Assembly: GCA_028688325.1 (NCBI GenBank)
Contig: JAQTYI010000001.1
Span: 104,820 to 168,819, forward strand
DNA length: 64,000 nt
Origin: Candidatus Portnoybacteria bacterium
GTDB taxonomy: Bacteria; Patescibacteriota; Minisyncoccia; Portnoybacterales; GWB1-42-6
Direction: 5' to 3'
The notes beneath the pieces are model-generated. The model had not been told where the DNA came from and searched no databases. It saw only the letters and a list, made by a program, of their open reading frames with translations. The position numbers were made by a program, and so were the translations under genes. Below, in pieces: positions 29,461 through 53,870 of this stretch. The first letter of the stretch is position 1. The number at the start of each line of letters is the position of its first letter.

Positions 29461-29476
29461 AATCTGTTCCCGTTAT

Positions 29477-30466: not shown

Positions 30467-30469
30467 AAA

Positions 30470-31450
30470 TTAATTAAGGCAGCCGTGTTTTGCCGCCAGT
30501 TTTTTTATTTCCGCGCCGCCGTAACGGTTTAAATATTCCCGCCAAATGCCGCCGCATTCCTTATAATACCGACAGCCGGCGCAAATGGCAATGTTTTCCC
30601 GGTAGGCATCCGCGAAAATCCCCTCTTCATTTTTTTCTATGCGTTTGGGGTCATATCCAACCTGATAGCTTGTTTCCGCCCGTTTTTTGGCGTTGACCAA
30701 GCAGACATTTTTCAAAGACCTAATCTCGGGCGAAAAAACGCAAAGCGGAAAATCAAAAAAACCAAGCTCCTTAAAATCGCCGGCGATCGATGCCAGAGAA
30801 TTCAGTTCTTTGGCCAATTCAGCCAAACGCACGGCCAAAATATCATAAAACTTTTTGGCATTGCCGTCGGGGATCAGATCCAGCAAATACCAATGCTTGA
30901 CCCCCAGGCCCCGCACAAAAGCGCCGAACTTTTCCAAAGATTTATGGTTCAAGCGCGAAATGACCGAGCTGATGTTTAAATGGACTGGCGGAAACTTTTT
31001 TATGTTTTCTATCCCCGCCAAAATTTCGCCAAAAGATCCCGGCACGCGCGTCAGCGCTTCATGCGTTTTTTTATCCGGCCCCAGCAATGAAAAAGTCACT
31101 TTATTGAGCCCGGCCGCCACGATCTTTTGGCAAAAATCCGGATAACCCAGCAGCCGACCATTGGTGCTCAGCGCAATAGTTTGATACCCTATGTCTTTAG
31201 CCGCTGCCACCAGATCAAAAATATCGCGCCGCAGCGTCGTCTCCCCGCCAGTGAATTCAACCCCGTTAAAACCCTCTTCCCTGCCTTGCTTCAGATCTCC
31301 TATCAGATCATGATGGGTCCGATCCGGGTAAAATTTTTCTTTTCCCCTGATCGAACACATCAGGCAGTTATTGTTACAGGAAAAGCCGACCAGCACCAAA
31401 AGGCCTTCGGCGATCGGTTCTTTTTTTTCAGCTTTTTTCTTTTCAGGCAT
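30470..31450 (-). CDS. Radical SAM enzyme, paralog 5
   Basis: CNNNCLMC, GGETTL, TNGRLL, C-terminal CAGCRYYKECGG. Confidence 0.8.
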   Translation of the reverse strand: MPEKKKAEKKEPIAEGLLVLVGFSCNNNCLMCSIRGKEKFYPDRTHHDLIGDLKQGREEGFNGVEFTGGETTLRRDIFDLVAAAKDIGYQTIALSTNGRLLGYPDFCQKIVAAGLNKVTFSLLGPDKKTHEALTRVPGSFGEILAGIENIKKFPPVHLNISSVISRLNHKSLEKFGAFVRGLGVKHWYLLDLIPDGNAKKFYDILAVRLAELAKELNSLASIAGDFKELGFFDFPLCVFSPEIRSLKNVCLVNAKKRAETSYQVGYDPKRIEKNEEGIFADAYRENIAICAGCRYYKECGGIWREYLNRYGGAEIKKLAAKHGCLN

Positions 31451-33692: not shown

Positions 33693-33769
33693 CAGGCCTT
33701 CCTAACTTTCAAAAAATCCCAGATTTCCGCCGACAATGATTTATTTTCTTGTTCCATAAAATTGATCTA

Positions 33770-35485: not shown

Positions 35486-35491
35486 AAAAAA

Positions 35492-36599: not shown

Positions 36600-36607
36600 A
36601 ATCGGCG

Positions 36608-39486: not shown

Positions 39487-40383
39487 CTATTTCTTTACCG
39501 GCTTAAACTCGCTCCATCCGAAAATCGCCGGATATTCCTTCCAAGGACCCTCGCACCGGCTAAAATACTTGCAGGAACGGCATTTGGCCGCCTTTTCTTT
39601 GCCGCTGTTGCGGCGATAATCGCCGTAATCGGCCACTGTGAAATTAGAGTCGTAGATGCTGGTCTTGGGCATGATATCTTCGGCCACGCATTGTTCATAT
39701 CCCCTCAAAAAACAGAACGGAACGGCTTCGGCGGTGACTCTTTTGCCGGCCTTGAGGCCGATCTCAAGGCCCTTTTTCAGATACGGCATTATCTCGCTTT
39801 TTTTAGGCACAAGCCACTTTTCGTTCTCCTTGGCCGAGCCCAGGATATGCACGAACGCGAATTGGAACTGGTCCACTCCCAAATCCACCAAAACCTTTGC
39901 CAGTTCCGGCAAAAATTTATAATTGCTGCTGGTGATAACGGAATTGGTCAAAACGAATTGGTTTAATTTTTTCAGGTTCTTGATGCCCCGCGTCGTTTGC
40001 TCAAAGCTCCCTTTGGCCGCCGTCAGAGAGTCATGGATCTTCGCATTGTGGCCATGAAGCGACGGGCCAAATTGCGTGGCTCCGGCCCTGATGGCCCGAA
40101 CGCAAAAATCAGGATACGCGAAAATCCGCCCGTTGCTCTGGATCTGAATTTCTTCAAAGCCGATCTTTTTGGCCGCCGCGATCAATTCGAGAAAATTAGT
40201 GTGTAAACTCGGCTCGCCGCCGGTGAAGACCACTTCCCTTTTTCCCGCCGCAAAAGCTTCTTGCAGCGAATCGACCACTTCCTTTTTGCTTTTGGACGGA
40301 AGGGTTTCCCGTTTCCTGCCTTGCACGCAAAAAACGCAGTGGTTGTTGCAGTTAAAGCCAACTTTTATGTCCACTCTTTCCAT
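39487..40383 (-). CDS. Radical SAM enzyme, paralog 7
   Basis: CNNHCVFC, GGEPSL, SNGRIF, AAKGSF, C-terminal CRSCKYFSRCEG. Confidence 0.8.
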   Translation of the reverse strand: MERVDIKVGFNCNNHCVFCVQGRKRETLPSKSKKEVVDSLQEAFAAGKREVVFTGGEPSLHTNFLELIAAAKKIGFEEIQIQSNGRIFAYPDFCVRAIRAGATQFGPSLHGHNAKIHDSLTAAKGSFEQTTRGIKNLKKLNQFVLTNSVITSSNYKFLPELAKVLVDLGVDQFQFAFVHILGSAKENEKWLVPKKSEIMPYLKKGLEIGLKAGKRVTAEAVPFCFLRGYEQCVAEDIMPKTSIYDSNFTVADYGDYRRNSGKEKAAKCRSCKYFSRCEGPWKEYPAIFGWSEFKPVKK

Positions 40384-40724: not shown

Positions 40725-40752
40725 ATTATACAGCTTAGAAAATTTATTTCAA
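40725..40752 (-). promoter_or_regulatory. Sigma70-like promoter for the 73-aa ORF
   Basis: On the minus strand: TTGAAA-N16-TATAAT, ending about 33 nt upstream of the ATG. It overlaps the rSAM paralog 8 stop. Confidence 0.4.
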
Positions 40753-41751
40753 CAGAGAATCCCTTTCCGCAAAAAAGATCCTAAAATCGTCGATTTTTTT
40801 CCCCTTCACGGGCTTCAGCTCCCCGAAGCCGTAAAAATCCGCGTAGCCCTCCCTGATGCCGTAACAGATATTGTCGTAGCGGCATCCGGCGCATCCTTTA
40901 TCCTTGCGGTCATGGGCGTTTTTGGGCTCGATCGTGATGACAAAATTGGGGTTATCAATGACCGTTTTTTTCTGGACCTTCACCCAGATATTATATTTAT
41001 TCGCTTCGCCGAGCACGCAAAACGGCAGATGCTGGACGGAAATTTTAGTTTTACCGGAATTGGCTTGCAGCGCTTTTTTTATATATGGCACGGCGTCTGT
41101 CATTTTCGGCACAAGATTGCGGTGCCGCATCAGTTCTCCGGACATAATAGGAAAGCTCAAGGTGACGCTCGATTGCCCCAGCTTATCTCTCAATAAGCGC
41201 ACTACTTCGGGCAAATATTTATAGTTGCGGGCGGTAATGACAATATTTATGCTAACTCTCTGACCCAAATTACCCAAATTGATGATCCCTTGCTTAGCCC
41301 TGGTGAAAGAACCCGGAGAACAGGTCATTGAATCATATAGTTTCGCGTTATGGCCGTGAAAAGAAATGAAAAAATCATCGGCGCCGGCCTGAACCGTTTT
41401 TTCGGCAAAAGACAAATCGGAAAATTTCTGGCCGTTCGATTCCACGGCGATGGTCTCAAAACCGATGCTTTTGGCGTATTTTATTATCTCCAGGAAATCT
41501 TTTCTAACCGCCGCTTCGCCGCCCGTTATCCTGATTTTATGCGACAATTTCTTGAATTGATCCAGCCGGTTTTTTATTTCCGAAAGAGCCGGCTCTTTCC
41601 GGCCGCCGGGCTTGTTGGCGCTCACGGAACAAAACAGACAATTTTGGTTGCATCTGCCGGTTATATATATTTCCGGAACAAACAAGGCGCCTTTGTGATT
41701 TTCGGCTCTTGATTCGGATCGACTGTTGCCCGGTAATTGTTCTTTTTTCAT
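40744..41751 (-). CDS. Radical SAM enzyme, paralog 8
   Basis: CNQNCLFC, GGEAAV, SNGQKF, C-terminal CAGCRYDNICYG...GELKPV. Confidence 0.8.
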   Translation of the reverse strand: MKKEQLPGNSRSESRAENHKGALFVPEIYITGRCNQNCLFCSVSANKPGGRKEPALSEIKNRLDQFKKLSHKIRITGGEAAVRKDFLEIIKYAKSIGFETIAVESNGQKFSDLSFAEKTVQAGADDFFISFHGHNAKLYDSMTCSPGSFTRAKQGIINLGNLGQRVSINIVITARNYKYLPEVVRLLRDKLGQSSVTLSFPIMSGELMRHRNLVPKMTDAVPYIKKALQANSGKTKISVQHLPFCVLGEANKYNIWVKVQKKTVIDNPNFVITIEPKNAHDRKDKGCAGCRYDNICYGIREGYADFYGFGELKPVKGKKIDDFRIFFAERDSLLK

Positions 41752-41778
41752 ATTTTAACGCCCGGCTTTTTCCATTGA

Positions 41779-42696
41779 TTATTTTAAAATCGCTTTCAAT
41801 TTTCCCGTCCCGAATTCCTCCAGATCGCTTTTGGCAAAACCATCGCAGAAAGAATCGGCCTTGCACTTTTTACATATGGCCGCCTTGCTTTTCAACCGAT
41901 AGATCGGCAGATCTTTTATTTTTGTTTTTAATTTTCTTTCCGGCTGGCAGTATTTTCCATGGTCCGGCGGCAAGCAATTATTGATGATGTTGTTTTTTAT
42001 TTCTCCAAAAACACAAAAAGGAATTTCCATAAAACGAACCGTCTTGCCGTGTTTCCGGGAGTATTCCGCCGCTTTCTTTACATAAGGCGGCAGATCCTTT
42101 ATCGGGATATAATATTCGTGGTTGTTCCCCTCCACCTTTTTTCTGAAGGGTATAGACAAATAATAATCAACAATTGCCAATTCGTCCATTAATCTTAACC
42201 AATCCGCTAAATCGTTCTTATTTTGCTCCATGATCAAATTGGATACCTGTATCTCGATTGCCGGTGCAAGTTTTTTTATGGTGCGGAGCCCCTTTAAGAC
42301 CGAATCGAAGCTCCCTTTTCTTCTGGTGATCAAATCGTGTATCTCTTTATTTGACCCGTAAACGGGGACCCTTAATTTATCGACGCCGGTTTTTATTAAT
42401 TTTTTTAAAAAATCCTCTTCCCCCAGTTTGTTGCCGTGGCTGGAAAGCTGCACGAATCCAAATCCGATATTTTTCGCATATTTTATCAGCCTTAAGATCC
42501 CGCCGTACTCGATCGGATCCGCTCCTGATATTTCCAGCCGCCCCAGGCCCTTTTGTTTGAATTCAAGCAAACACTTGAAAACATTGATCTCTTGCTTTTC
42601 CAGTTCGGTTCGGCTGGCTTTCGGCACCCTTCGACAAAAAACACAATGGTTTTCGCATGAGGGATTGATGATTACGCCCCCTGTTTCTTTTTTCAT
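41779..42696 (-). CDS. Radical SAM enzyme, paralog 9
   Basis: CENHCVFC, C-terminal CKKCKADSFCDG. Confidence 0.75.
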   Translation of the reverse strand: MKKETGGVIINPSCENHCVFCRRVPKASRTELEKQEINVFKCLLEFKQKGLGRLEISGADPIEYGGILRLIKYAKNIGFGFVQLSSHGNKLGEEDFLKKLIKTGVDKLRVPVYGSNKEIHDLITRRKGSFDSVLKGLRTIKKLAPAIEIQVSNLIMEQNKNDLADWLRLMDELAIVDYYLSIPFRKKVEGNNHEYYIPIKDLPPYVKKAAEYSRKHGKTVRFMEIPFCVFGEIKNNIINNCLPPDHGKYCQPERKLKTKIKDLPIYRLKSKAAICKKCKADSFCDGFAKSDLEEFGTGKLKAILK

Positions 42697-45989: not shown

Positions 45990-46038
45990 TGTTTTTTATT
46001 AAATTCGCTTCTGTCCGCACAAAGAACCTCCCCGATTT

Positions 46039-47262
46039 TTAACCGAAATTCTCGTTGATAGAACCAATCACCGTTCCCAGCGCTTTATTTAAAATATTTT
46101 TTCTAATATTAAGTGGCGGCTGCACAAACAGCATGTTATCGGAATAATTTTTAAAAAGCAGCACGCCCTTTTTTAAACAATCATTAAAAATCTTTCTGGC
46201 GTCATTGTTGTTAAAAAATTCTATCGCGATAATCAGCCCCTTTCCTCTAATCTCTTTGACTGCCTTGTTTTTACTCAAACTTTTTTTTAAAAAACCGAGG
46301 GTCAAGCGTCCCAGATCACAGCTGTTTTTTGCCAGTTTTTCCTCTTCAATGATGTTAATATTTTCCAGGGCAACGGCGCACGCCAAAGGAGACCAGGCGA
46401 AAGTCGACATATAAACAAAGTTACCGATAAGTTCTTTTCTGGAAACCACCGCCGATATTGGAGCGTAACCGCTGCCAAGCCCCTTGGCCAAACAAACCAT
46501 ATCCGGACAAATACTGAAATGCTCGAAAGAAAACATTTTGCCAGTCCGGCCAAAACCCGTCAAAACCTCGTCAAAGATAAGTAAGGTTCCGTATCGCCGG
46601 CACATTTTAAGAACTTCTTTGAAAAAACCATCCGGAAAATTAAAACAGCCGGCGCTGGTCACGACTCCCTCCGCTACAAATCCCGCGCAGCCCCCCCGCT
46701 TAAGCTCCTTTTCTATGGACTTTAAAGTTTTTTTAAAATCAGCGGGAAGGGCGCGGCCTTTGTTCAAAGAAGACGGATGTTTGATAGTGGCAAAGCGCGC
46801 TAATATCGGCGTAAATTCTTTGGTCAGCCGGTTCTCCCCTCCCAAAGACATAGCGGCGAAAGTATGGCCGTGGTAGGCACCCTTAAAACTCAAAAATTTG
46901 CTCCGCCCTGTTTGGCGCGCGGCGATTTTCATGGCGATTTCCACCGCTTCGCTCCCGGTCGTGGCGCGCAAAACCGAATCAAAACCCGCCGGGAACAGAC
47001 CTAAAATCTTTTTGGCCAATAAGATCGATTCGCTGGTTTCCTGTAATTGCGGCGAAAATATGTTTTTTTCGGCCTGCCGGCGCATCACTTCCTTCATCCT
47101 ATGACTGTTGTACCCCACGGCCACCACGCCGGCGCTGGCCGACAGATCAACATATTTTTTATTGTTTTCATCGTAAAGATAAACATCGTCCGTCCGGACG
47201 ATTTTCAAGCCGGGCAGATTGCAAGGATAAAGATATGATTCTTTTTTCGGTTTCGTTTTCAT
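46039..47262 (-). CDS. Class III PLP-dependent aminotransferase
   Basis: DEVLTGFGRTG motif. 407 aa. Confidence 0.75.
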   Translation of the reverse strand: MKTKPKKESYLYPCNLPGLKIVRTDDVYLYDENNKKYVDLSASAGVVAVGYNSHRMKEVMRRQAEKNIFSPQLQETSESILLAKKILGLFPAGFDSVLRATTGSEAVEIAMKIAARQTGRSKFLSFKGAYHGHTFAAMSLGGENRLTKEFTPILARFATIKHPSSLNKGRALPADFKKTLKSIEKELKRGGCAGFVAEGVVTSAGCFNFPDGFFKEVLKMCRRYGTLLIFDEVLTGFGRTGKMFSFEHFSICPDMVCLAKGLGSGYAPISAVVSRKELIGNFVYMSTFAWSPLACAVALENINIIEEEKLAKNSCDLGRLTLGFLKKSLSKNKAVKEIRGKGLIIAIEFFNNNDARKIFNDCLKKGVLLFKNYSDNMLFVQPPLNIRKNILNKALGTVIGSINENFG

Positions 47263-47272
47263 TAAAATAAGT

Positions 47273-48355
47273 TTACCGACGCTTTTTATTCTTTAAGACC
47301 AGCGGCCGGATAATATCTTCGTATTTTTTTACCCAATCGTTGATGGAAAAATTATTTTCGGCGTATCGCCTGACTCCCCGCCGGTTGATATTCCCTATTT
47401 TTTTTATCGCCCGGGCCATTGCTTCTATATCCCCGTCGGGAACTATATAGCCGCTAACCTTGTCTTCCACAACTTCCCTTACCGCCGCCCGGTCAAAAGC
47501 AATGACGGGCGCGCCACAAGCCATTGATTCCACCAAAACTAAGCCGAAGGGCTCATCCCATTGGATCGGAAAAAGGGTCGCTGCGGCTTTTTGAAAAAGC
47601 TTAATCTTTGTCTTAAAATCCACTTCTCCCGAATAAACAATGTTTTTATTGTCAATATGCGGTTTTATGAGATCGTTGAAATAAGAAAGGTTGGACGGGC
47701 TGATGCCGCCGGCGATGATCAGTTTCCTGCCCGCCCTTTTGGCGGCCTCGATCGCCAAATGAACTCCTTTTTCCGGGCAAATCCTGCCGATAAACAGCAA
47801 ATGTTCTTTTTTTGAAAAAGACAAGGGAAAATCCTTAAAATCAAAAGATGGATAAAACGGTTCCAGATAATTGAGTCCCGGCATCGCGCTTTTTATGAAA
47901 TCGGACATCGGCAAATAATGAACATTTTTTATCCCTGATATGGATTTTTTTAAATAAGGAAAAATTTCTTTGTGGGGATAATTTATTTGAATTACTATCG
48001 GTATTTCTGACTGCCCGGCAAAGGGCAGAATTTTATAAAAAACATGGTCATTGAACTGAATCAGGTCAAAATTTTTCTGCCGGCCGGAACTGAAAAAATC
48101 GGCCAGCGCCACGGTATCGTAAAAATTATTGACTCTTTCTTCCAGCTGACCCCTTTCCAATTTTGCAATAGTGGAAAATGGAGAAATTTTCTCAACTTTT
48201 GCTCCTTTTATCTTTGACCCGGGCGCGGCAAAAAGAACGATCTTGTGGCCTCTTTTTACCAGCTCTTTTATCAAATAAAATGCCGGCTGTTCTATTCCGC
48301 CGGTTTTTGGCGGCGGCACGATATTTCTTGAAGACATAAAAAAAGCGATTTTCAT
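47273..48355 (-). CDS. GT-B glycosyltransferase (GT4-like)
   Basis: EPFGLVLVESMACGAPVI motif. Confidence 0.7.
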   Translation of the reverse strand: MKIAFFMSSRNIVPPPKTGGIEQPAFYLIKELVKRGHKIVLFAAPGSKIKGAKVEKISPFSTIAKLERGQLEERVNNFYDTVALADFFSSGRQKNFDLIQFNDHVFYKILPFAGQSEIPIVIQINYPHKEIFPYLKKSISGIKNVHYLPMSDFIKSAMPGLNYLEPFYPSFDFKDFPLSFSKKEHLLFIGRICPEKGVHLAIEAAKRAGRKLIIAGGISPSNLSYFNDLIKPHIDNKNIVYSGEVDFKTKIKLFQKAAATLFPIQWDEPFGLVLVESMACGAPVIAFDRAAVREVVEDKVSGYIVPDGDIEAMARAIKKIGNINRRGVRRYAENNFSINDWVKKYEDIIRPLVLKNKKRR

Positions 48356-48372
48356 TGGAGCGAAGTAAAAAA

Positions 48373-49293
48373 TTATTTGCTTTTTATCACCGCCTTATCC
48401 CAAAAAATCCGGTCGACGGAAAGGGAGCAGGAACATTCTTCGTATAAACACTGGGAAAATGTTTTTCTTAGCTCAAAATCACCCTTTAAAAGATTACCCA
48501 AATAGCCCTTTTTCGCCCGGCAAGCCATCACGCAAGAATAGGCGGCCCCGTTAGGAAGCATAAAAAAAGACCAGAAACCGGCAGAACATTTCCGGCCCTT
48601 AAAGCTGGCCGACGGCTTGTCTATCCCCTGATTGCTGCAAGCCGCGGCAAAATCATTGAATCTTGGCAGATTATAATTTTGGTTGAGCTGCTTCAGAATT
48701 TTTTTTTGTCTGGCAGAATATTGAAAAAAAGTGCGATCGGGGCGCTGATAGGCCCAAATTATAAGCTGAACACCGGCTTCAAAAAACTTCTTTTTGATTT
48801 TCTCCAGATAAGGCAGCTTATCGACTATTCCGACCGAGGTGACCAGCAAATTTTTTTTAAAACCGGGAAATGATTTTTCTATTTCTGATACCTTGCTTAA
48901 AAAAGCATCTGACTTGACATAATCTAAGTGCAAGCTGGCAAAAACCAAGAAAAGTCGGCCCTTGGTTATCTTCAAGAATTTGACGATCTTATCCGACTTG
49001 GCAGAAAAATTAGTGTAAATGGAAATGCGATGCAACTGCTTTAGCTTGGTCAATCCTTTAATCGCTTCCAAAAAATCATCGTGAAAAAACGGCTCTCCGC
49101 CTAAAATAGTAACATCCCATTTCCCCTTCAGTTTGTTTTTCAGGCCTTCCACTATTGCCAGAGGGCTAACCGAGCTTGGTTCTTTTTTCACCGAGGCAAA
49201 ACAATACGGACACCTGTAATTGCAAGTATCTGTAATAACCCAATTGATATTATGAGTATAAATCGAGAACGGATTATTTTTTGCCTTTTTCAT
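48373..49293 (-). CDS. Radical SAM enzyme, HxsC-like partner maturase
   Basis: CNYRCPYC, GGEPFF. A Cys-rich C-terminus distinct from paralogs 1-11. It lies immediately downstream of the HxS-repeat gene. Confidence 0.6.
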   Translation of the reverse strand: MKKAKNNPFSIYTHNINWVITDTCNYRCPYCFASVKKEPSSVSPLAIVEGLKNKLKGKWDVTILGGEPFFHDDFLEAIKGLTKLKQLHRISIYTNFSAKSDKIVKFLKITKGRLFLVFASLHLDYVKSDAFLSKVSEIEKSFPGFKKNLLVTSVGIVDKLPYLEKIKKKFFEAGVQLIIWAYQRPDRTFFQYSARQKKILKQLNQNYNLPRFNDFAAACSNQGIDKPSASFKGRKCSAGFWSFFMLPNGAAYSCVMACRAKKGYLGNLLKGDFELRKTFSQCLYEECSCSLSVDRIFWDKAVIKSK

Positions 49294-49430
49294 AATAATG
49301 ACCGATCAAGCCGATTTAAATATCGCCAAATAAAAACAACTTTTTATAATATTTACTCCATTATATTCTTCCAAACTGATAAGTCAATTAATTCTCTCAA
49401 TGGCAAAACCCGGATAAAATCGCGCGGTCT

Positions 49431-49465
49431 AAAAAAGGATTCCGAACAAAAAATGCTCGGAATCC
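49431..49465 (-). terminator. Rho-independent terminator after the HxS-repeat gene
   Basis: On the minus strand: ggattccgag-cattttttgt-tcggaatcc followed by tttttt. Confidence 0.6.
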
Positions 49466-49498
49466 TACAGAATTATCCGCCCGCCGCAAAAATTCCGG

Positions 49499-49897
49499 TT
49501 AATAAGAGTTGTGCGAGCCGTGGGAGCTGTGAGAAGCGTGAGAAGCGTGAGAAGCGTGAGAAGCGTGGGAGCCGTGGGAAGCATGGGAAGCATGGGAAGC
49601 ATGAGAGCCATGAGAGCCATGGGAAGCATGGGAAGCATGAGAAGCATGAGAAGCATGAGAAGCATGAGAGCCATGAGAGCCATGAGAAGCATGAGAGGCA
49701 TGAGAGGCATGAGAGGCATGAGAGGCATGGAAGCAATAAGCGGAAGCATTATCCGCTTTGGCGAGCCCCGATAACCCCGCGCCCAGAGACAAAACAACCA
49801 AAGATATTTTAGCCATATCCTTTTTGATGATCTTGCCCTCCTCGCTCGTTAAAAAGGTCCTAATGTCTTTTTTTATCTGAGGTAATTTTTTCCTCAT
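49499..49897 (-). CDS. hxsA: His-Xaa-Ser repeat protein (HxsA-like), secreted
   Basis: An alternative ATG at 49816 gives a signal peptide MAKISLVVLSLGAGLSGLAKA. The core is DNASAYCF(HAS/HGS)n...SHNSY. It is flanked by two rSAM genes, as in the defined Hxs system. Confidence 0.55.
   Translation of the reverse strand: MRKKLPQIKKDIRTFLTSEEGKIIKKDMAKISLVVLSLGAGLSGLAKADNASAYCFHASHASHASHASHASHGSHGSHASHASHASHASHASHGSHGSHASHASHASHGSHASHASHASHASHSSHGSHNSY
49511..49735. repeat. About 25 tandem 9-bp units (RTGVGARSC) encoding the HxS repeats
   Basis: Sequence is gtgagaagc/gtgggaagc/atgagagcc... It is open in 4-5 reading frames on both strands. Confidence 0.9.
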
Positions 49898-49970
49898 TTT
49901 TCTTTTCTCAAAATTTTATTCTTTTGCCTCTTTCGGTTTCAAAATCGGCGCAAAACACCTTCTTCGTTTG

Positions 49971-50000
49971 ATTATAACAGATAATAAATATCCCCGTCAA
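49971..50000 (-). promoter_or_regulatory. Near-consensus sigma70-like promoter for the HxS-repeat gene
   Basis: On the minus strand: TTGACG-N18-TATAAT, about 70 nt upstream of the ATG at 49897. Confidence 0.5.
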
Positions 50001-50041
50001 CGATCTTATCGGCAACCGTTCCGCTTGGCGCGGCAAAAGGA

Positions 50042-51514
50042 TCATCGTTTCACCCAGTTCTCAAAAACCGCCTTTATTTTATCATCGGACATCTTCTCAA
50101 AAAGATAATCCAGGATTGCCTTGCTTATTTTGCAGCGCTCGTTGGTCGCCATCTGGCCAAAAATATTTCCCTGGTCCACATAATTGAAAATGGGGCAGGT
50201 GCCGCAATATGGCTGATAAGCGCAATCGCTGCAGCCGGCCGCGCCCGCCAGGCAAGAAGCCAGGCAAACGGTCTTTATCACCGGACTGTCTATCAATTCC
50301 CGGTAAGTATTCTTATGGACATTCCCGAGCTTGAAGCTTTCGTCATCCATCATGCTCAGCATCCGGCCTTCGTCGCAAGTGTAAACATCGCCATTGTAAT
50401 TATAAGCCATCTGGCCAATGCCCGCGCCGCAAGGCGAACGGTAATCAACCATATTGATATCTTCGTCGGTCAAAATCTTCATCAGAAATATCTTGGCAAA
50501 CCGTTCCTCGAATTTTACGCCTTTCAGGTTTATCTCAATGATGTAATCCAGGGCCTTTTTATAGAAAGCGATGAAATCGTCGCTGTCGTAGCCGAACTGG
50601 CTCCAAGCTTTTTTGGAAAAGCCGAATGGATCAAGCGGTCGCAAAAAGATATTGCCGAATCCCAATCGCACATATTCGTCGACTATCTCTTTGGGATGCG
50701 CCAGCGCCGGCCGGCTCACAGTTATGATCCCGGCCACGCGCCAGATAAAGCCCTTCCTTTCCATTTTCGCGTAATCTTTTTGGAACCTTTCTATCCAACG
50801 GACGGCCCGTTCATATCCGTTCGCCTTTTTACCGTTATCTATCAGCGGCCGGTTCTGGTTGTGGATCGCTTCCGGGCCGTCGAGAGAAGTGCAGGTGCTG
50901 ACTTTATTCTTCAGCAAATACTGGTATTTTTCCTCGGTCATCAAGCTGAAATTGGTCACAAGGCGCAACTCCAGTTTTTTCCCGGTCTTTTTACTTTTCT
51001 GACGCGCTTTTTTAACGATGAACCGCACCAGAGGCCAGTTGGCCAGCGGCTCGCCGCCCTGGAATTCAATGGCGACAAAGGGGCTCGTCGTTTCAAAGAT
51101 GACATCCAAAGCTTTGGCCGCCGTTTCTTTGCTCATATCCGCGTTTTTCTGCTCTATCGTCTGGGCCGAAGCGTGGCAATAAACGCACCGGTGGTTGCAG
51201 CGCAGAGTAACCACCATAACATGCAGAGTTGGACCAAAAAACAGGTATTCGTGCCTTGAGCGGTGCTGCCTGATGGCCAGTTCCGCGTTGAATTCCTTTT
51301 TGACGAAATTATTTTCAACCAAAGACAAATATGGCTTGCTTTTTTTATCCAGCTTGCCCTCAATGAAATTCGTGAATTCTTTGGCGGCCAGAAATTGGTA
51401 TCTCCCCTCTTCATTGGTCAGAAGATACTTGTCTTTCAGTTTCTTGAACCGAAAAAATCCCAATTCCTTATATTTTATTTTTTTCAGGTCTATCACCATA
51501 GCGCCGTTTATCAA
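50042..51514 (-). CDS. hxsB: Radical SAM/SPASM enzyme, HxsB-like (anSME-like)
   Basis: CNHRCVYC, GGEPL, SLDGPEAIHNQNRP. Full SPASM domain: CGAGIGQ...C and CLAGAAGCSDCAYQPYCGTCP. Confidence 0.6.
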   Translation of the reverse strand: MINGAMVIDLKKIKYKELGFFRFKKLKDKYLLTNEEGRYQFLAAKEFTNFIEGKLDKKSKPYLSLVENNFVKKEFNAELAIRQHRSRHEYLFFGPTLHVMVVTLRCNHRCVYCHASAQTIEQKNADMSKETAAKALDVIFETTSPFVAIEFQGGEPLANWPLVRFIVKKARQKSKKTGKKLELRLVTNFSLMTEEKYQYLLKNKVSTCTSLDGPEAIHNQNRPLIDNGKKANGYERAVRWIERFQKDYAKMERKGFIWRVAGIITVSRPALAHPKEIVDEYVRLGFGNIFLRPLDPFGFSKKAWSQFGYDSDDFIAFYKKALDYIIEINLKGVKFEERFAKIFLMKILTDEDINMVDYRSPCGAGIGQMAYNYNGDVYTCDEGRMLSMMDDESFKLGNVHKNTYRELIDSPVIKTVCLASCLAGAAGCSDCAYQPYCGTCPIFNYVDQGNIFGQMATNERCKISKAILDYLFEKMSDDKIKAVFENWVKR

Positions 51515-51517
51515 CGA

Positions 51518-51736
51518 TTATTTCATCAGCCCCAGAACATAATTGCAAAATTCCTGCTCAACGGCGCCGGCCATTTCCGGGTCGATATTCCTCAACAAAA
51601 CCTTGATATATCCTTTTCCGTCAACCACGGAAAAATCGGCCAGGTCCTTAAATTCCCGGCTGGCCATCTTTATCGCTTTCAAGCTGTAGAAGCGCTTGTT
51701 GAAATTGATATCCGCGCTGTTTTTTTCTTTAGGCAT
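51518..51736 (-). CDS. Small protein, HxsD-like by position
   Basis: 72 aa from MPKEKN. The track ORF extends to 51841, which would overlap the upstream gene. Confidence 0.3.
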   Translation of the reverse strand: MPKEKNSADINFNKRFYSLKAIKMASREFKDLADFSVVDGKGYIKVLLRNIDPEMAGAVEQEFCNYVLGLMK

Positions 51737-51747
51737 CCTTCTCGTGG

Positions 51748-52290
51748 TTATTTCTTGCTCTTGGCTTTTTTCGGCTTTTTCTCTTCTTGTTTCGCTTCGG
51801 GCTCTTCCTGTTTTTCCGGCTGACCGTATTTTTCTTCCCAAGGAACAGCGATGCCCAAGGGGTCGCTGGCGGAATCAAAGCCGATTTCCACGGGTTTGGC
51901 TTCGCAGTCGCACGGTTCACTGTTGGCGGCTGAAAATAACGCCCGCTCCACCACATATTGGCGGATCTTCTTGTTCTCCGCGGAAATCCCGACCCGCAAA
52001 GCGTAGTTTAAAAGTTCATTCAGAAAGTCGCCGGCCAAAACCCGGAGCTCTCCGGCCGACAACTTTTGCTTGGGCGTCAGAACCACTTCTATTTTTGAAC
52101 CGTTGCTGTCCAGAAACAAATATGCCTTGTCTATAAAAACATAACTGGCGCCGTAAACGGCCTCCAGCGGATAAATCGTCGTATTTAATGCCAAGGTTAA
52201 AGAATTTTTGTTGATTTTTTTTAGCATGCGTCGAAAATAATTTATTGGTGTTGTAATTTTAGACGACTGCCTGGCGGAAGTCAATATCAA
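51748..52290 (-). CDS. Hypothetical protein with Lys/Glu-rich C-terminal tail
   Basis: 180 aa. Confidence 0.35.
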   Translation of the reverse strand: MILTSARQSSKITTPINYFRRMLKKINKNSLTLALNTTIYPLEAVYGASYVFIDKAYLFLDSNGSKIEVVLTPKQKLSAGELRVLAGDFLNELLNYALRVGISAENKKIRQYVVERALFSAANSEPCDCEAKPVEIGFDSASDPLGIAVPWEEKYGQPEKQEEPEAKQEEKKPKKAKSKK

Positions 52291-52326
52291 AAATCATTCA
52301 ATTTGTTTTCCGCGCTGAATATAGAA

Positions 52327-52827
52327 TTACTTCAACCTTATGTCGCCCCGAATCCTTAGTCCGCCTTTTAAATTGATCGAAGGGATAAGCAAGAGAAAAG
52401 AATCACCGGAAATCCAGTCTGTAACACTGCTGTTATTATCGGTTATCTGCAACCGCCAATAATACCTAATGTTCAAAGACAAACCGCCAGTGCTATATGA
52501 TCTGGCTGCAGCGTTTGAAACGACCCCGGAATCCACATTAACCGAGCCGAACCCGGAATCATCATCAATCTGCACCTGATAAGCTGCTTGCGTATTGCCA
52601 ACAGCCGAAGCAAAAGTCCAATAAACAGTGGCATAACCGGCCCAAGGAGACAAAACGGCCTGGGCCGTGCAAGCGGTAAAATTACTGCCGGCATTCAATG
52701 TGGCCGCTTGGGCTTTCTGAATCGGAGAAAAAGAATGAAATATTAAATCTAAAACCAGCGCTAAAGCGATCATTTTATAAATTGCCGGTTTTGATAAAAA
52801 TTTTAATTCTGGCTTAATAAAAATCAT
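52327..52827 (-). CDS. Secreted hypothetical protein
   Basis: 166 aa. N-terminal anchor or signal sequence. Confidence 0.35.
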   Translation of the reverse strand: MIFIKPELKFLSKPAIYKMIALALVLDLIFHSFSPIQKAQAATLNAGSNFTACTAQAVLSPWAGYATVYWTFASAVGNTQAAYQVQIDDDSGFGSVNVDSGVVSNAAARSYSTGGLSLNIRYYWRLQITDNNSSVTDWISGDSFLLLIPSINLKGGLRIRGDIRLK

Positions 52828-52883
52828 TTTTGTTGCCGTTGATTAATTCTGATTTCCTTGTAGAAACCGAACCTACAAATATT

Positions 52884-53603: not shown

Positions 53604-53630
53604 GCAGTCAGAGTGCGTGAGATTACGATG
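53380..53630. mobile_element. IS200-like subterminal hairpins
   Basis: Hairpin 53380-53418 (16-bp stem) and hairpin 53599-53621 (8-bp stem). Their cores are exact reverse complements of each other. Confidence 0.4.
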
Positions 53631-53870
53631 TTGGGGTCGGGGTTGGTGTAGCTTCCGGAGTAGTCAATGGAGTCGATGTTGGTGTTGGTGTTGGGGTTGG
53701 TGTAGCTTCCGGAGTAGTCAATGGGGTCGGTGTTGGTGTAGGAGTTGGGGTTGGGGTTGGTGTTGGGGTTGATGTCGGAGTCGGAGTAGCGGCCGGGGTT
53801 GGTGTTGGTGTGGCTTCCGGAGTAATCAATGGGGTAGCAGTTGGTGTTGGTGTAGCCAAAGGAATTTCCG
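53623..53870. repeat. GGTGTT-rich microsatellite-like region with about three ~57-bp tandem units encoding the TP linker
   Basis: The unit ggtgtagcttccggagtagtcaatgg(a/g)gtcg repeats and encodes LTTPEATPTPTP... Confidence 0.7.

What the first reader, a model, noticed from the sequence alone, without database searches (positions are those of the whole stretch)
48373..52290. His-Xaa-Ser (Hxs)-type cassette: repeat peptide flanked by two radical SAM maturases
A 132-aa ORF with a signal peptide has a core made almost entirely of HAS/HGS triplets, about 25 units.

Upstream of it is an SPASM rSAM of 490 aa with an anSME-like SLDGPEAIHNQNRP block. Downstream is a second, smaller rSAM. A small ORF sits upstream of the SPASM enzyme.

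This reproduces the gene set of the bioinformatically defined Hxs system: HxsA repeat protein, HxsB and HxsC rSAM maturases, and HxsD. The chemistry of that system is still unknown.

Here the cassette is physically continuous with the 11-paralog rSAM array. That raises the possibility that the HxS-repeat protein, or its His/Ser side chains, is the common substrate.
Basis: partly seen in the sequence, partly recalled or inferred. Interest (0 to 1): 0.8.

Follow-up and report, generated by a model that had tools for sequence, protein, structure and literature searches.

The report
CPR His-Xaa-Ser cassette without HxsC

Summary
On the minus strand lie hxsD (51748-52290), a short hxsD paralog (51518-51736), hxsB (50042-51514) and hxsA4 (49499-49897; exactly 25 H-x-S units). 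All four pass curated NCBIfam cut-offs. Codon-position variation and a sister-strain comparison fix the HxS reading frame.

The 306-aa "second rSAM" (48373-49293) is not HxsC (25.8 bits, cut-off 267.9). A strong terminator and a promoter-like site separate it from hxsA4. Its orthologs elsewhere sit with aminotransferase and GT4 genes, never with Hxs genes (0 of 85 loci).

Eight paralogs in the upstream array have HxsC4 or HxsC as best match (74-165 bits, all below cut-off) and share HxsC's C-terminal CxxCx5C motif. Of 38 related Hxs loci, 26 carry at least one such rSAM downstream of hxsB and 9 carry three or more. Such arrays also occur without an adjacent Hxs cassette, so HxsA4 is unlikely to be their common substrate.

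"Chemistry unknown" is out of date: canonical HXS was shown in 2026 to be an antiphage system with a +8 Da modification. This is a new variant of a known kind: no HxsC in the cassette, an extra HxsD-like gene, neutral repeats of hypervariable number and no peptidoglycan-binding domain.

The parts
51748..52290 (-). hxsD (180-aa ORF from TTG). It is longer than the canonical 96-aa HxsD and has a Lys-rich C-terminal tail.
   Evidence: TIGR03976 60.6 bits, cut-off 50. Orthologs sit directly upstream of hxsB in 42 of 52 related loci.
51518..51736 (-). hxsD-like gene, about 72 aa from the internal ATG (the maximal ORF reaches 51841). It is a paralog of the HxsD core domain.
   Evidence: NF038315 68.7 bits, cut-off 41. 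Orthologs are 65-99 aa. hhalign against HxsD gives 93.4% probability, E 2.4e-7. Present in 32 of 52 loci.
50042..51514 (-). hxsB, a SPASM-domain radical SAM maturase. The ORF is 490 aa; homologs align from residue 6, so the true start is probably the ATG at 51499.
   Evidence: TIGR03978 541.5 bits, cut-off 370; Pfam Radical_SAM, Fer4_12 and SPASM. 37% identical to Aeromonas HxsB. All cluster cysteines are invariant in 31 CPR homologs.
49971..50000 (-). Promoter-like site directly upstream of hxsA4 (TTGACG, 18-nt spacer, TG, TATAAT).
   Evidence: 11 of 12 consensus matches. This is a consensus match only, not evidence of function.
49499..49897 (-). hxsA4, the 132-aa repeat pre-protein. It has a conserved Lys-rich N-terminal 29 aa, a hydrophobic segment (residues 31-45), AKA|DNASAYC, then 25 HxS units (nt 49505-49729) and a C-terminal Tyr.
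   Evidence: NF038313 92.2 bits, cut-off 55; no hit to canonical HxsA at E<=0.01. N-terminal motif conserved in 30 distinct homologs. Frame evidence.
49436..49466 (-). Intrinsic terminator-like hairpin (13-bp stem, 5-nt loop, T-run), beginning 32 nt after the hxsA4 stop codon. It marks the end of the Hxs operon.
   Evidence: Best-scoring terminator-like site in 45900-53700.
49360..49387 (-). Promoter-like site (TTGACT, 16-nt spacer, TATAAT) ahead of the 306-aa rSAM.
   Evidence: 11 of 12 consensus matches.
48373..49293 (-). 306-aa radical SAM ('rSAM-306'). It is not HxsC and not part of the cassette. It is the first gene of a tightly packed rSAM-GT4-aminotransferase module.
   Evidence: HxsC 25.8 bits against 267.9; best match STM4011 family 69.6 against 200. 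Only 8 homologs in 5.8 billion sequences. Orthologs are coupled to aminotransferase and GT4 genes in non-Hxs loci. 0 of 85 other Hxs loci carry it.
46039..48355 (-). GT4 glycosyltransferase (47273-48355) and class-III aminotransferase (46039-47262), partners of rSAM-306.
   Evidence: Pfam Glycos_transf_1 and Aminotran_3. The GT4 is 59% identical to the GT4 that follows the rSAM-306 ortholog in L007. Intergenic gaps are 17 and 10 nt.
39487..40383 (-). HxsC/HxsC4-like twitch-type rSAM (298 aa). It is the best candidate for a trans-acting HxsC.
   Evidence: HxsC4 162.4 and HxsC 104 bits, both below cut-off. Its 76% ortholog follows hxsA4 after one small ORF in L012. 49-59% orthologs form one half of the fusion enzyme that follows hxsA in L039, L041, L053, L062 and L093. 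CxxCx5C-EGxW tail as in true HxsC4. AF2 pLDDT 91.9.
40744..42696 (-). Two HxsC-like paralogs (40744-41751 and 41779-42696).
   Evidence: HxsC4/HxsC scores 112.2/102.7 and 74.4/69.8 bits. Both carry the CxxCx5C motif.
27638..31450 (-). Four HxsC-like paralogs in tandem (27638-28588, 28585-29460, 29477-30466, 30470-31450). 27638-28588 is the closest to canonical HxsC.
   Evidence: 27638-28588 scores 154.3 bits on TIGR03977 over profile positions 29-289 of 292. It is the best blastp hit of Aeromonas HxsC in the window, E 1e-19.
24867..25895 (-). Eighth HxsC-like paralog.
   Evidence: HxsC4 164.8 and HxsC 84.2 bits. CxxCx5C motif present.
52327..52827 (-). Small membrane-anchored Ig-like protein (Ig_Rha78A_N), a conserved neighbour directly upstream of hxsD. 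It has a paralog at 27085-27597 at the far end of the array.
   Evidence: Pfam 34.3 bits. Orthologs directly upstream of hxsD in L012 (62%) and L015 (48%). Paralog identified.

Best explanation
The locus is a Patescibacteria-type ('A4-type') His-Xaa-Ser system made of hxsD, a short hxsD paralog, hxsB and hxsA4. It is transcribed on the minus strand and closed by an intrinsic terminator.

Shown:
- All four genes pass curated family cut-offs.
- The same D, D-like, B, A order recurs in dozens of related loci.
- HxsA4 is translated in the HxS frame and is under purifying selection.
- The cassette contains no HxsC.
- The neighbouring 306-aa rSAM belongs to a separate rSAM-GT4-aminotransferase (sugar-type) module.
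- Eight rSAMs in the adjacent array belong to the HxsC/HxsC4 family.

Inferred mechanism:
- In the cytoplasm, HxsB (a SPASM rSAM with two auxiliary clusters), helped by the small HxsD and HxsD-like proteins, recognises the conserved Lys-rich N-terminal segment of HxsA4. It installs a radical-mediated modification on His/Ser repeat residues. In E. coli the equivalent change is +8 Da on SHRSS, plus N-terminal processing.
- The HxsC-type step, which is essential in E. coli, is supplied in trans by one or more HxsC-like paralogs. The best candidate is 39487-40383, whose orthologs follow hxsA in many related loci.
- The modified His/Ser polymer is then exported through its signal or anchor segment and displayed at the cell surface. 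By analogy with E. coli HXS it acts at the envelope, most plausibly against phage genome entry.
- Because its repeats lack Arg and Lys, any DNA or metal binding would depend on histidine.
For: Family membership:
- NCBIfam: HxsB 541.5 (cut-off 370), HxsD 60.6 (50), HxsA4 92.2 (55), HxsD-like 68.7 (41).
- The organism is Candidatus Portnoybacteria. HxsB homologs are named in Portnoybacteria, Falkowbacteria and Magasanikbacteria.

Architecture:
- The conserved order and the HxsA4 N-terminal motif recur in L011-L017 and in the 80 metagenome loci.
- Frame and selection evidence.

rSAM-306 is excluded:
- Terminator and promoter-like sites separate it from hxsA4.
- Its orthologs lie in non-Hxs loci. 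In the sister genome one lies about 467 kb from the Hxs cassette on the same contig.

Array paralogs are HxsC-family:
- HxsC4 or HxsC is the best HMM for eight paralogs.
- Canonical HxsC's best window hits are these paralogs.
- They share the CxxCx5C(-EGxW) tail with HxsC and HxsC4.

Linkage:
- Of 38 loci, 26 have at least one, 14 at least two and 9 at least three HxsC-like rSAMs downstream of hxsB.
- True HxsC4 (606 and 627 bits) directly follows hxsA in L072 and L090.

Canonical function: PMC13128918 reports HxsB, HxsC and HxsD all required, an HxsC-HxsD complex, a +8 Da modification, export, and a block to phage DNA entry.
Against: - No HxsC-like paralog reaches a curated HxsC or HxsC4 cut-off (maximum 165 bits against 500, and 154 against 268).
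- Twelve of 38 related Hxs loci have no HxsC-like gene within 10 kb downstream of hxsB. The system may therefore work without HxsC.
- Four of four sampled HxsC-like arrays have no Hxs genes within 10 kb on either side. These arrays are rich in glycosyltransferases.
- The closest solved structure to the paralog is BlsE, a sugar-nucleoside rSAM, ahead of the RiPP maturase SkfB. The paralogs could act on carbohydrates.
- HxsA4 lacks the peptidoglycan-binding domain and the basic residues that the E. coli DNA-binding model relies on.
- CPR cells are not known to have a Gram-negative periplasm (own knowledge).
- PADLOC gives no defence-system hit beyond generic viperin-like rSAM similarity.
- No expression, mass-spectrometry or phenotype data exist for this variant.
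Confidence: 0.6

Rival explanations
1. One reading: a complete canonical four-gene Hxs cassette in which the 306-aa rSAM downstream of hxsA is HxsC.
For: It is an rSAM of roughly the right size, on the same strand, 205 nt downstream of hxsA4. It has a weak TIGR03977 hit, E 4.4e-6, over the N-terminal rSAM core only.
Against: - It scores 25.8 bits against a cut-off of 267.9.
- Canonical HxsC does not hit it by blastp, although it hits seven array paralogs.
- It has no CxxCx5C motif.
- A terminator and a promoter-like site lie between it and hxsA4.
- Its orthologs occur in 0 of 85 other Hxs loci. They are instead coupled to aminotransferase and GT4 genes.
- One relative is fused to a polysaccharide deacetylase.
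Confidence: 0.04
2. The CPR Hxs system is self-sufficient. HxsB with HxsD and the extra HxsD-like protein matures HxsA4 without any HxsC-type enzyme. The neighbouring rSAM and glycosyltransferase array is an unrelated cell-surface glycan or small-protein pathway that is often syntenic by shared ancestry.
For: - Twelve of 38 Hxs loci lack HxsC-like genes within 10 kb.
- Several loci (L014-L017, L021-L024) instead carry a membrane-anchored Cys-rich protein after hxsA4.
- Arrays occur without Hxs genes, and with their own conserved ~70-aa protein.
- The array contains GT2, PMT_2, a carbamoyltransferase, GDSL and GT4 genes.
- The structural best hit is BlsE.
- A terminator closes the cassette.
Against: - HxsC is genetically essential in the only system studied, and it partners HxsD.
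- The paralogs' best HMMs are HxsC4 and HxsC, and they share HxsC's C-terminal motif.
- In many loci an ortholog of 39487-40383 directly follows hxsA on the same strand.
- Bona fide HxsC4 follows hxsA in L072 and L090.
Confidence: 0.3
3. One reading: HxsA4, with its 25 repeats, is the common substrate of the whole 11-paralog array, each paralog modifying the repeats differently.
For: Eight paralogs are HxsC-family. Arrays of three to five HxsC-like genes follow hxsA in L041, L053, L054, L058, L059 and L062. Tandem fusions of two or three HxsC-like domains exist.
Against: - Arrays of five to seven HxsC-like rSAMs occur with no Hxs genes within 10 kb on either side.
- Three of the 11 window rSAMs are not HxsC-like.
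- Repeat number and paralog number do not track each other. L019 has at least 149 repeats, and L015 and L016 have 33 and 42 repeats with no nearby paralog.
Confidence: 0.08
4. HxsA4 is mainly a histidine-rich metal-binding or glycosylated surface polymer, not an antiphage effector. Its Ser residues would be O-glycosylated outside the cell by the PMT_2 and GT2 polyprenyl-phosphate-sugar machinery encoded in the array. Radical modification would be accessory.
For: - After the putative cleavage site the protein has 25 His, 27 Ser and no Lys or Arg, with pI 7.2.
- PMT_2 (36608-38548) and a Dol-P-hexose-transferase-like GT2 (35718-36599) lie in the same cluster.
- PMT_2 recurs near Hxs or array genes in L012, L100 and L101.
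- PMT-family enzymes O-mannosylate Ser/Thr of exported proteins (own knowledge).
Against: There is no direct link between any glycosyltransferase and HxsA4. The GT-rich arrays also occur without Hxs genes. The conserved HxsB and HxsD genes argue that radical modification is central.
Confidence: 0.1
5. The repeat is not a real HxS protein. It is either translated in another frame (LMP or LSC repeats) or is an assembly artefact.
For: Alternative-frame ORFs exist mechanically at 49465-49797 and 49473-49736.
Against: - The gene hits HxsA4, including the N-terminal non-repeat region.
- The N-terminus is conserved in 30 homologs.
- Variation is confined to the third codon position.
- Seventeen of 18 inter-strain differences are synonymous in the HxS frame, and an independent assembly has the same 25 units.
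Confidence: 0.01

Closest known systems
Canonical proteobacterial HXS antiphage system: HxsD-HxsB-HxsC-HxsA (TIGR03976-TIGR03979; Li et al., Nat Commun 2026, PMC13128918)
   Same: - HxsB ortholog: 37% identity to Aeromonas HxsB, above the equivalog cut-off.
- An HxsD family member sits upstream of hxsB.
- The substrate protein has an N-terminal export signal and tandem His-Xaa-Ser triplets.
- Two kinds of radical SAM enzyme from the same families are encoded in the neighbourhood.
   Different: - No HxsC in the cassette. The order is D, D-like, B, A rather than D-B-C-A.
- There is an extra HxsD-like paralog.
- HxsA4 fails the canonical HxsA model. It has 25 neutral repeats (x = A, G, S or N) instead of about 5-6 Arg-rich ones, and repeat number ranges from 4 to at least 149 in relatives.
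- HxsA4 has no peptidoglycan-binding domain. It has a long conserved N-terminal motif and a C-terminal Tyr or Trp.
- HxsD is about twice as long as the canonical one.
- The HxsC relatives lack canonical HxsC's ~105-aa N-terminal extension and occur as multi-paralog arrays.
- The host is a CPR bacterium, whereas 99.7% of described systems are in Pseudomonadota.
NCBIfam 'type 4' Hxs models: HxsA4 (NF038313), HxsD-like (NF038315), HxsC4 (NF038332). These are curated but were not found in the searchable literature.
   Same: HxsA4 and HxsD-like pass their cut-offs. The array paralogs align nearly full-length to HxsC4 and share its CxxCxYxxxCEGxW...GWxEFxPV tail.
   Different: No window protein reaches the HxsC4 cut-off (maximum 164.8 against 500). 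True HxsC4 (L072, L090) is a single gene directly after a short hxsA with 11 repeats. Here the relatives are eight diverged paralogs lying 7-25 kb away.
Twitch and SPASM radical SAM enzymes: SkfB, SuiB and PapB (RiPP maturases) and BlsE and DesII (sugar-modifying)
   Same: The HxsC-like model (pLDDT 91.9) superimposes on BlsE (E 1.6e-13, 28% identity) and SkfB (E 3.4e-12). It has a C-terminal Cys motif suited to an auxiliary cluster. HxsB's next-best HMMs are PapB and SCIFF-type maturases.
   Different: No equivalog-level match to any of them. The substrate class, peptide or carbohydrate, cannot be read from the fold.
rSAM plus aminotransferase sugar-tailoring pairs, following the DesI/DesII logic (analogy from own knowledge), proposed for the 306-aa rSAM
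   Same: Orthologs overlap the stop of a DegT/Aminotran_1_2 aminotransferase gene by 4-20 nt and are followed by a GT4 gene. A relative is fused to a polysaccharide deacetylase.
   Different: There is no significant similarity to DesII specifically. The best HMMs are the STM4011 family (69.6 against 200) and prokaryotic viperin (46 against 180), both below cut-off. Here the aminotransferase is class III, and the GT4 gene separates it from the rSAM.

Membership tests
His-Xaa-Ser system (canonical; TIGR03976-TIGR03979) | HxsB SPASM radical SAM maturase above the TIGR03978 cut-off | tested here: met
   541.5 bits against 370, aligned over profile positions 3-466 of 466
His-Xaa-Ser system (canonical; TIGR03976-TIGR03979) | HxsD small protein above the TIGR03976 cut-off, upstream of hxsB | tested here: met
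   60.6 bits against 50 for ORF 51748-52290
His-Xaa-Ser system (canonical; TIGR03976-TIGR03979) | HxsC radical SAM maturase above the TIGR03977 cut-off, adjacent to hxsB | tested here: not met
   The 306-aa rSAM scores 25.8 against 267.9. The best score in the window is 154.3, for 27638-28588, about 21 kb away. No rSAM lies between hxsB and hxsA4.
His-Xaa-Ser system (canonical; TIGR03976-TIGR03979) | HxsA matching the canonical model (TIGR03979), with a few basic HxS repeats and a peptidoglycan-binding domain | tested here: not met
   No TIGR03979 hit at E<=0.01. No Pfam domain. No Lys or Arg after the hydrophobic segment. Compare the Aeromonas HxsA repeat HRSHRSHSSHRSHSSHRSH with its PG-binding tail.
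His-Xaa-Ser system (canonical; TIGR03976-TIGR03979) | Gene order hxsD-hxsB-hxsC-hxsA (99.6% of described systems, PMC13128918) | tested here: not met
   The order here is hxsD, hxsD-like, hxsB, hxsA4, terminator
His-Xaa-Ser system (canonical; TIGR03976-TIGR03979) | rSAM-dependent N-terminal processing and +8 Da modification of HxsA; block of phage DNA entry | not testable with these tools
   Requires expression, mass spectrometry and phage assays. Known only for E. coli HXS.
HxsA4-type variant (NCBIfam NF038313, NF038315, NF038332) | HxsA4 repeat protein above cut-off | tested here: met
   92.2 bits against 55, covering residues 4-98 and so including the N-terminal non-repeat region
HxsA4-type variant (NCBIfam NF038313, NF038315, NF038332) | HxsD-like small protein above cut-off | tested here: met
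   68.7 bits against 41. hhalign to HxsD gives 93.4% probability.
HxsA4-type variant (NCBIfam NF038313, NF038315, NF038332) | HxsC4 radical SAM protein above cut-off (500 bits) | tested here: not met
   The eight paralogs score 74-165 bits on HxsC4. Positive controls L072 and L090 score 606 and 627.
HxsC/HxsC4 superfamily in the broad sense (for the eight array paralogs) | HxsC4 or HxsC is the best-scoring model; canonical HxsC hits the paralogs reciprocally; C-terminal CxxCx5C motif | tested here: met
   Best-HMM results. By blastp, Aeromonas HxsC hits seven paralogs, E 1e-19 to 1e-5. The motif is present in all eight, in canonical HxsC and in HxsC4.
STM4011-family or viperin-family rSAM (for the 306-aa rSAM) | Score above the NF038073 or NF038283 cut-off | tested here: not met
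   69.6 against 200 and 46 against 180. The PDB hits are viperins, matched over the N-terminal core only, E 5e-5.
Sec-type signal peptide (for HxsA4) | Positively charged n-region, hydrophobic h-region, AxA cleavage site | tested here: inconclusive
   The n-region is 29 aa, unusually long, with 9 Lys/Arg. The h-region is residues 31-45 (Kyte-Doolittle 2.0). An AKA|D site follows. No dedicated predictor was available, so it could equally be an uncleaved signal-anchor.

The most novel reading that the evidence does not exclude
In CPR/Patescibacteria the HxsC family has radiated into arrays of up to eight paralogs, including double and triple fusions. Together with HxsB, two HxsD-type chaperones and polyprenyl-phosphate-dependent glycosyltransferases, these arrays would build a heavily radical-modified and glycosylated His/Ser-repeat surface polymer. 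Its length varies widely between strains (4 to at least 149 repeats). This would be a previously undescribed class of ribosomally made, rSAM-tailored envelope polymer, possibly serving as the phage barrier of organisms that lack a periplasm.
Probability: 0.12. Interest if true: 0.85.

Novelty: new variant of a known kind. Interest (0 to 1): 0.55.

Why it matters
The Hxs system was an orphan bioinformatic prediction until 2026, when the E. coli version was shown to block phage DNA entry. That study placed 99.7% of systems in Pseudomonadota and found an almost invariant four-gene layout.

This locus and the related loci gathered here show a second, widespread architecture in Patescibacteria:
- The cassette contains no HxsC.
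- It carries a duplicated HxsD-type gene.
- The repeat protein is far longer, uncharged and hypervariable in length.
- HxsC relatives are expanded into arrays.

If HxsC acts in trans, or is dispensable, the variant separates the roles of HxsB and HxsC, which the E. coli work could not resolve. A substrate with 25 identical sites should also make the unknown +8 Da chemistry much easier to detect by mass spectrometry.

For annotation there is a practical lesson. An rSAM next to hxsA is not automatically HxsC.

Tried and rejected
- **306-aa rSAM as HxsC.** Rejected on HMM score, reciprocal blastp, motif, operon signals and synteny.
- **306-aa rSAM as a member of the array paralog family.** Rejected. 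It shares only the first ~80 residues, the rSAM core (E 1e-5 to 1e-7), and lacks the C-terminal motif.
- **The conserved ~70-aa protein beside 39487-40383 as a cryptic HxsD.** Rejected (hhalign probability 0.2%).
- **The membrane-anchored Cys-rich protein that follows hxsA4 in L014-L017.** Searched for in the window by tblastn; absent.
- **Genome-contig scan with HxsB.** Returned a single locus, L011, truncated inside hxsA.
- **PADLOC.** Gave only generic viperin-like rSAM similarity, with no defence-system assignment. That library dates from 2023, before HXS was published.
- **Fold search of the HxsC-like model.** Could not separate peptide from sugar substrates: BlsE came first and SkfB second.
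- **Base composition.** No sign of a foreign island; GC is 0.40-0.51 throughout.
- **Literature.** Searches for HxsA4, HxsC4, and for Patescibacteria with radical SAM and RiPP, found nothing on this variant.
- **Structure prediction of HxsD and HxsD-like.** Not attempted, because only window sequences could be submitted and the alignment would have been too shallow.

Full report
**1. What is in the sequence**

All relevant genes are on the minus strand. Reading in the direction of transcription:
- A giant ORF of more than 3,458 aa (53623-63999).
- An IS200-like Y1 transposase gene (52884-53603).
- A small Ig-like membrane protein (52327-52827).
- A 180-aa ORF (51748-52290).
- A small ORF (51518-51841 at its longest).
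- A 490-aa SPASM radical SAM gene (50042-51514).
- The 132-aa repeat ORF (49499-49897).
- A 205-nt gap.
- A 306-aa radical SAM gene (48373-49293).
- A GT4 glycosyltransferase gene (47273-48355).
- A class-III aminotransferase gene (46039-47262).
- A long run of radical SAM and glycosylation genes extending down to about 24.8 kb.

The repeat ORF contains exactly 25 uninterrupted H-x-S triplets: 17 HAS, 6 HGS, 1 HSS and 1 HNS. Tandem Repeats Finder reports a 9-nt period with 23 copies. The window comes from a Candidatus Portnoybacteria (CPR/Patescibacteria) genome. The 306-aa protein is 100% identical to an NCBI MAG protein of that name on a 788,852-bp contig.

**2. The reading frame is real**

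That fails on four counts.
- The ORF scores 92.2 bits on NCBIfam HxsA4 (cut-off 55), and the aligned region includes the non-repeat N-terminus.
- Within the repeat, the His and Ser codons never vary at positions 1 and 2. They vary only at position 3, in 8 of 25 units each.
- L018 is an independent metagenome assembly of a sister strain, 99.24% identical over 10.9 kb. It has the same 25 units.
- Of the 18 nucleotide differences in hxsA4 between the two strains, 17 are synonymous third-position changes in the HxS frame. The one replacement, N50T, lies outside the repeat.

**3. Scoring against the Hxs models**

| ORF | Model | Score (bits) | Cut-off | Result |
|---|---|---|---|---|
| 50042-51514 | HxsB, TIGR03978 | 541.5 | 370 | member |
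| 51748-52290 | HxsD, TIGR03976 | 60.6 | 50 | member |
| 51518-51841 | HxsD-like, NF038315 | 68.7 | 41 | member |
| 49499-49897 | HxsA4, NF038313 | 92.2 | 55 | member |
| 49499-49897 | canonical HxsA, TIGR03979 | no hit at E<=0.01 | n/a | not a member |
| 48373-49293 | HxsC, TIGR03977 | 25.8 | 267.9 | not a member |

For the HxsD-like gene, orthologs are 65-99 aa, so the real start is probably the ATG at 51736, which gives 72 aa. It is a paralog of the HxsD core domain (hhalign 93.4%, E 2.4e-7).

For the 306-aa rSAM, the best match is the STM4011 family at 69.6 bits against a cut-off of 200. The gene set is therefore D, D-like, B, A4. It is not the canonical D, B, C, A.

**4. What the 306-aa rSAM is**

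- It belongs to a very small family, with 8 hits in 5.8 billion sequences.
- Its orthologs (44-55% identity) lie in loci with no Hxs genes. There they overlap the end of a DegT/Aminotran_1_2 aminotransferase gene. In L007 the next gene is a GT4 that is 59% identical to the window's GT4.
- On JGI contig Ga0247841_10000011, the rSAM-306 ortholog lies about 467 kb from that genome's Hxs cassette.
- None of 85 other HxsB loci contains a member of this family.
- A relative in L100 is fused to a polysaccharide deacetylase and sits next to a GT4 gene.
- In the window, the strongest terminator-like hairpin of the region (13-bp stem plus a T-run, 49466-49436) follows the hxsA4 stop. A promoter-like site with 11 of 12 consensus matches (49387-49360) precedes the 306-aa gene. 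That gene is then packed 17 nt and 10 nt from the GT4 and aminotransferase genes.

I conclude that it belongs to a sugar-type tailoring module and not to the Hxs operon. The analogy to rSAM plus aminotransferase pairs such as DesI/DesII rests on my own knowledge and was not tested.

**5. Where the HxsC relatives are**

Eight rSAMs in the array have HxsC4 (NF038332) or HxsC (TIGR03977) as their best NCBIfam match.

| Paralog | HxsC4 (bits) | HxsC (bits) |
|---|---|---|
| 24867-25895 | 164.8 | 84.2 |
| 27638-28588 | 98.7 | 154.3 |
| 28585-29460 | 114.3 | 87.1 |
| 29477-30466 | 112.4 | 103.4 |
| 30470-31450 | 148.6 | 82.8 |
| 39487-40383 | 162.4 | 104 |
| 40744-41751 | 112.2 | 102.7 |
| 41779-42696 | 74.4 | 69.8 |

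- All are below the curated cut-offs (500 and 267.9). They are relatives, not equivalogs.
- 27638-28588 aligns to HxsC over almost the whole profile (positions 29-289 of 292).
- Reciprocally, a bona fide HxsC from an annotated Aeromonas plasmid locus hits seven of these paralogs by blastp (E 1e-19 to 1e-5). It does not hit the 306-aa rSAM.
- All eight share HxsC's C-terminal CxxCx5C motif. With true HxsC4 they share an extended tail, CxxCxYxxxCEGxW...GWxEFxPV. The 306-aa rSAM and two other array rSAMs (31460-32479 and 45042-45989) lack the motif. A third, 42704-44044, carries two copies but is best matched by NirJ2/PqqE-type models.
- An AlphaFold model of 39487-40383 is confident (pLDDT 91.9). 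Its nearest solved structures are BlsE, a sugar-nucleoside rSAM (E 1.6e-13), and then SkfB, a twitch-domain RiPP maturase (E 3.4e-12). The fold therefore does not decide between a peptide and a carbohydrate substrate.

**6. Is the link between cassette and array general?**

HxsB homologs at 50-70% identity are abundant in Portnoybacteria, Falkowbacteria, Magasanikbacteria and other Patescibacteria. I collected seven loci by exact-protein look-up and a genome scan, and 80 more from metagenomes. I then surveyed them with HMMs built from the window's own components.
- HxsD lies directly upstream of hxsB in 42 of 52 informative loci, and HxsD-like in 32 of 52.
- An HxS-repeat ORF starts within 1.5 kb downstream of hxsB in 35 of 55.
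- Of 38 loci with at least 5 kb downstream of hxsB, 26 have at least one HxsC-like rSAM (100 bits or more), 14 have at least two, 9 at least three and 5 at least four.
- In the closest relative, L012 (HxsB 70% identical), hxsA4 is followed by a 74-aa ORF and then a 76% ortholog of window 39487-40383. Next comes the ortholog of the DUF483-like gene 38541-39485.
- In L039, L041, L053, L062 and L093, the enzyme that follows hxsA is a 610-650 aa fusion. One half of it is a 49-59% ortholog of 39487-40383.
- L072 and L090 carry true HxsC4 (606 and 627 bits) directly after hxsA.

The reverse test is sobering. The 39487-40383 orthogroup has 1,370 members. Seven of its 38 members on long contigs share an exact contig length with HxsB hits. 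I looked up four members chosen because they lacked such a coincidence, which biases the sample against linkage. All four sit in arrays of five to seven HxsC-like rSAMs with GT2, GT4, GT28, PMT_2 and DUF483 genes. None has HxsB, HxsD, HxsD-like or HxsA4 within 10 kb on either side. The arrays are therefore an entity of their own, and the Hxs cassette is a frequent but not obligatory neighbour.

**7. HxsA4 anatomy**

Across 30 distinct homologs the pre-protein is built as follows.
- A conserved Lys-rich N-terminal motif, PxIKKdIKAFLtSEEGkInKK.
- A hydrophobic segment.
- In 18 of the 30 sequences, a Cys just before the repeats.
- (HxS)n with x = Gly (343), Ser (152), Ala (91) or Thr (30).
- A C-terminal Tyr (13 sequences) or Trp (10).

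Repeat runs range from 4 to at least 149. Close relatives differ widely: 25 here, 18 in L012, and at least 149 in L019, whose HxsB is 71% identical.

In the window protein the n-region is 29 aa with 9 Lys/Arg, and the hydrophobic core is residues 31-45. After the AKA|D site the 84-aa remainder has 25 His, 27 Ser and no Lys or Arg, with pI 7.2.

The canonical Aeromonas HxsA (192 aa) is different. It has an ordinary signal peptide, the repeat HRSHRSHSSHRSHSSHRSH and a C-terminal peptidoglycan-binding domain.

**8. What is known**

The Hxs system was defined bioinformatically by Haft and Basu, as cited in PMC9062424. Li et al. (Nat Commun 2026, PMC13128918) report the following.
- E. coli HXS blocks phage DNA entry.
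- A +8 Da modification maps to SHRSS in the last repeat.
- HxsC binds HxsD.
- 99.7% of systems are in Pseudomonadota, and 99.6% have the order D-B-C-A.

The function is known, and the exact chemistry is still open. NCBIfam curates HxsA2, A3, A4, HxsC4 and HxsD-like models. I found no paper in the library that mentions HxsA4 or HxsC4, or that describes the Patescibacteria variant.

**9. Most likely mechanism**

Shown: the composition of the cassette, its operon boundaries, the reading frame under selection, the exclusion of rSAM-306, and the HxsC-family nature of the paralogs.

Inferred:
- HxsB, with HxsD and HxsD-like, recognises the conserved N-terminal segment of HxsA4 and modifies the repeat residues in the cytoplasm.
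- An HxsC-type step is supplied in trans by an array paralog. The best candidate is 39487-40383.
- The product is exported and acts at the cell surface, plausibly as an envelope barrier to phage as in E. coli.

My estimates are about 0.95 that this is an HxsA4-type Hxs cassette lacking HxsC, about 0.45 that an array paralog serves as HxsC, and about 0.3 that the function is antiphage.

The main rival (0.3) is that the CPR cassette is self-sufficient and the array is an unrelated glycan pathway. Supporting this, 12 of 38 loci have no nearby paralog, arrays occur without Hxs genes, the arrays are rich in glycosyltransferases, and BlsE is the closest fold.

**10. Verdict**

The array link is real as a statistical association, but the 'common substrate' idea is unlikely.

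This is a new variant of a known kind. It is of moderate to high interest for two reasons. It offers a natural experiment separating the roles of HxsB and HxsC, and its substrate carries 25 equivalent sites for solving the +8 Da chemistry.

Noticed in passing
window 40470-40691 (minus strand); also L012 5524-5748, L099 9791-10000, L100 10991-11197, L101 9732-9944, L102 9798-9998: A conserved ~70-aa protein (motif EPFLxTxTxF...LETFLFxNNFPYEE..GTK..I.KLI) sits directly beside every ortholog of the HxsC-like rSAM 39487-40383 that was examined, usually just upstream. It is not HxsD-related (hhalign probability 0.2%). It could be the array's own substrate peptide or a chaperone.
   Followed up: partly
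L019 5170-6687: In a relative whose HxsB is 71% identical, the HxS-repeat ORF has at least 149 consecutive HxS units (more than 505 aa) and runs off the contig end. Repeat number is hypervariable between close relatives (18, 22, 25 and at least 149).
   Followed up: partly
window 49499-49897 compared with L018 4695-5093: Between two strains that are 99.24% identical overall, hxsA4 carries 18 differences in 399 nt (4.5%, about six times the local average). Almost all are synonymous C/T swaps in both directions inside the repeat, which suggests reshuffling or gene conversion among repeat units while the count stays at 25.
   Followed up: no
L014 9080-9997, L015 9057-9911, L016 9728-10549, L017 8878-9789, L021 3313-4221: In one subgroup of CPR Hxs loci, hxsA4 is followed by a membrane-anchored, Cys-containing protein of 273-305 aa with no Pfam family. 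It is absent from this window (tblastn) and from L012.
   Followed up: partly
window 42704-44044 (minus strand): This 446-aa rSAM has an N-terminal extension that resembles the C-terminal part of the HxsC-like paralogs, including a second CxxCx5C motif, as if from a permuted or fused duplication. Its 523-aa orthologs (43% identity) follow the membrane-anchored Cys-rich gene in L014 and L021.
   Followed up: partly
L058 7937-11113; L079 2667-4607; L041 6658-8496: HxsC-like domains occur as fusions: a triple (1,058 aa), a tandem double (646 aa), and a fusion to a second rSAM domain with an HxsB/PapB-like core (612 aa).
   Followed up: partly
window 53623-63999 (minus strand; runs off the window end): A giant ORF of more than 3,458 aa with three Peptidase_S74 (endosialidase chaperone) matches, a phage tail collar domain, a large internal duplication of several hundred residues, and a Thr/Pro-rich C-terminal tandem repeat (53629-53850). 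A comparable giant protein of more than 3,798 aa lies upstream of the Hxs cassette in L015.
   Followed up: no
window 52884-53603 (minus strand); L012 1334-2011: An IS200-like Y1 transposase gene lies between the giant ORF and the Ig-like gene. A 68% identical copy occupies the same position in L012, so it is syntenically conserved and not a recent insertion.
   Followed up: no
window 52327-52827 and 27085-27597 (minus strand); L099 17708-18859, L102 17106-18221: Two small Ig_Rha78A_N-like membrane proteins bracket the whole Hxs and array supercluster in the window. Larger Ig/PKD relatives sit at the ends of rSAM arrays in unrelated loci.
   Followed up: no
window 32484-38548 (minus strand): The array includes a complete extracytoplasmic glycosylation toolkit: a PMT_2 GT-C transferase (36608-38548), a Dol-P-hexose-transferase-like GT2 (35718-36599), a NodU-like carbamoyltransferase (33770-35485) and a GDSL/SGNH protein (32484-33692). 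The Ser-rich HxsA4 could be an O-glycosylation target, but this was not tested.
   Followed up: no
L011 (CAYXNZ010000003.1): The only GTDB species-representative hit is labelled 'uncultured Gammaproteobacteria', yet it carries a CPR-type D, D-like, B, A4 cassette (HxsB 63% identical). It may be mis-binned or mis-classified.
   Followed up: no
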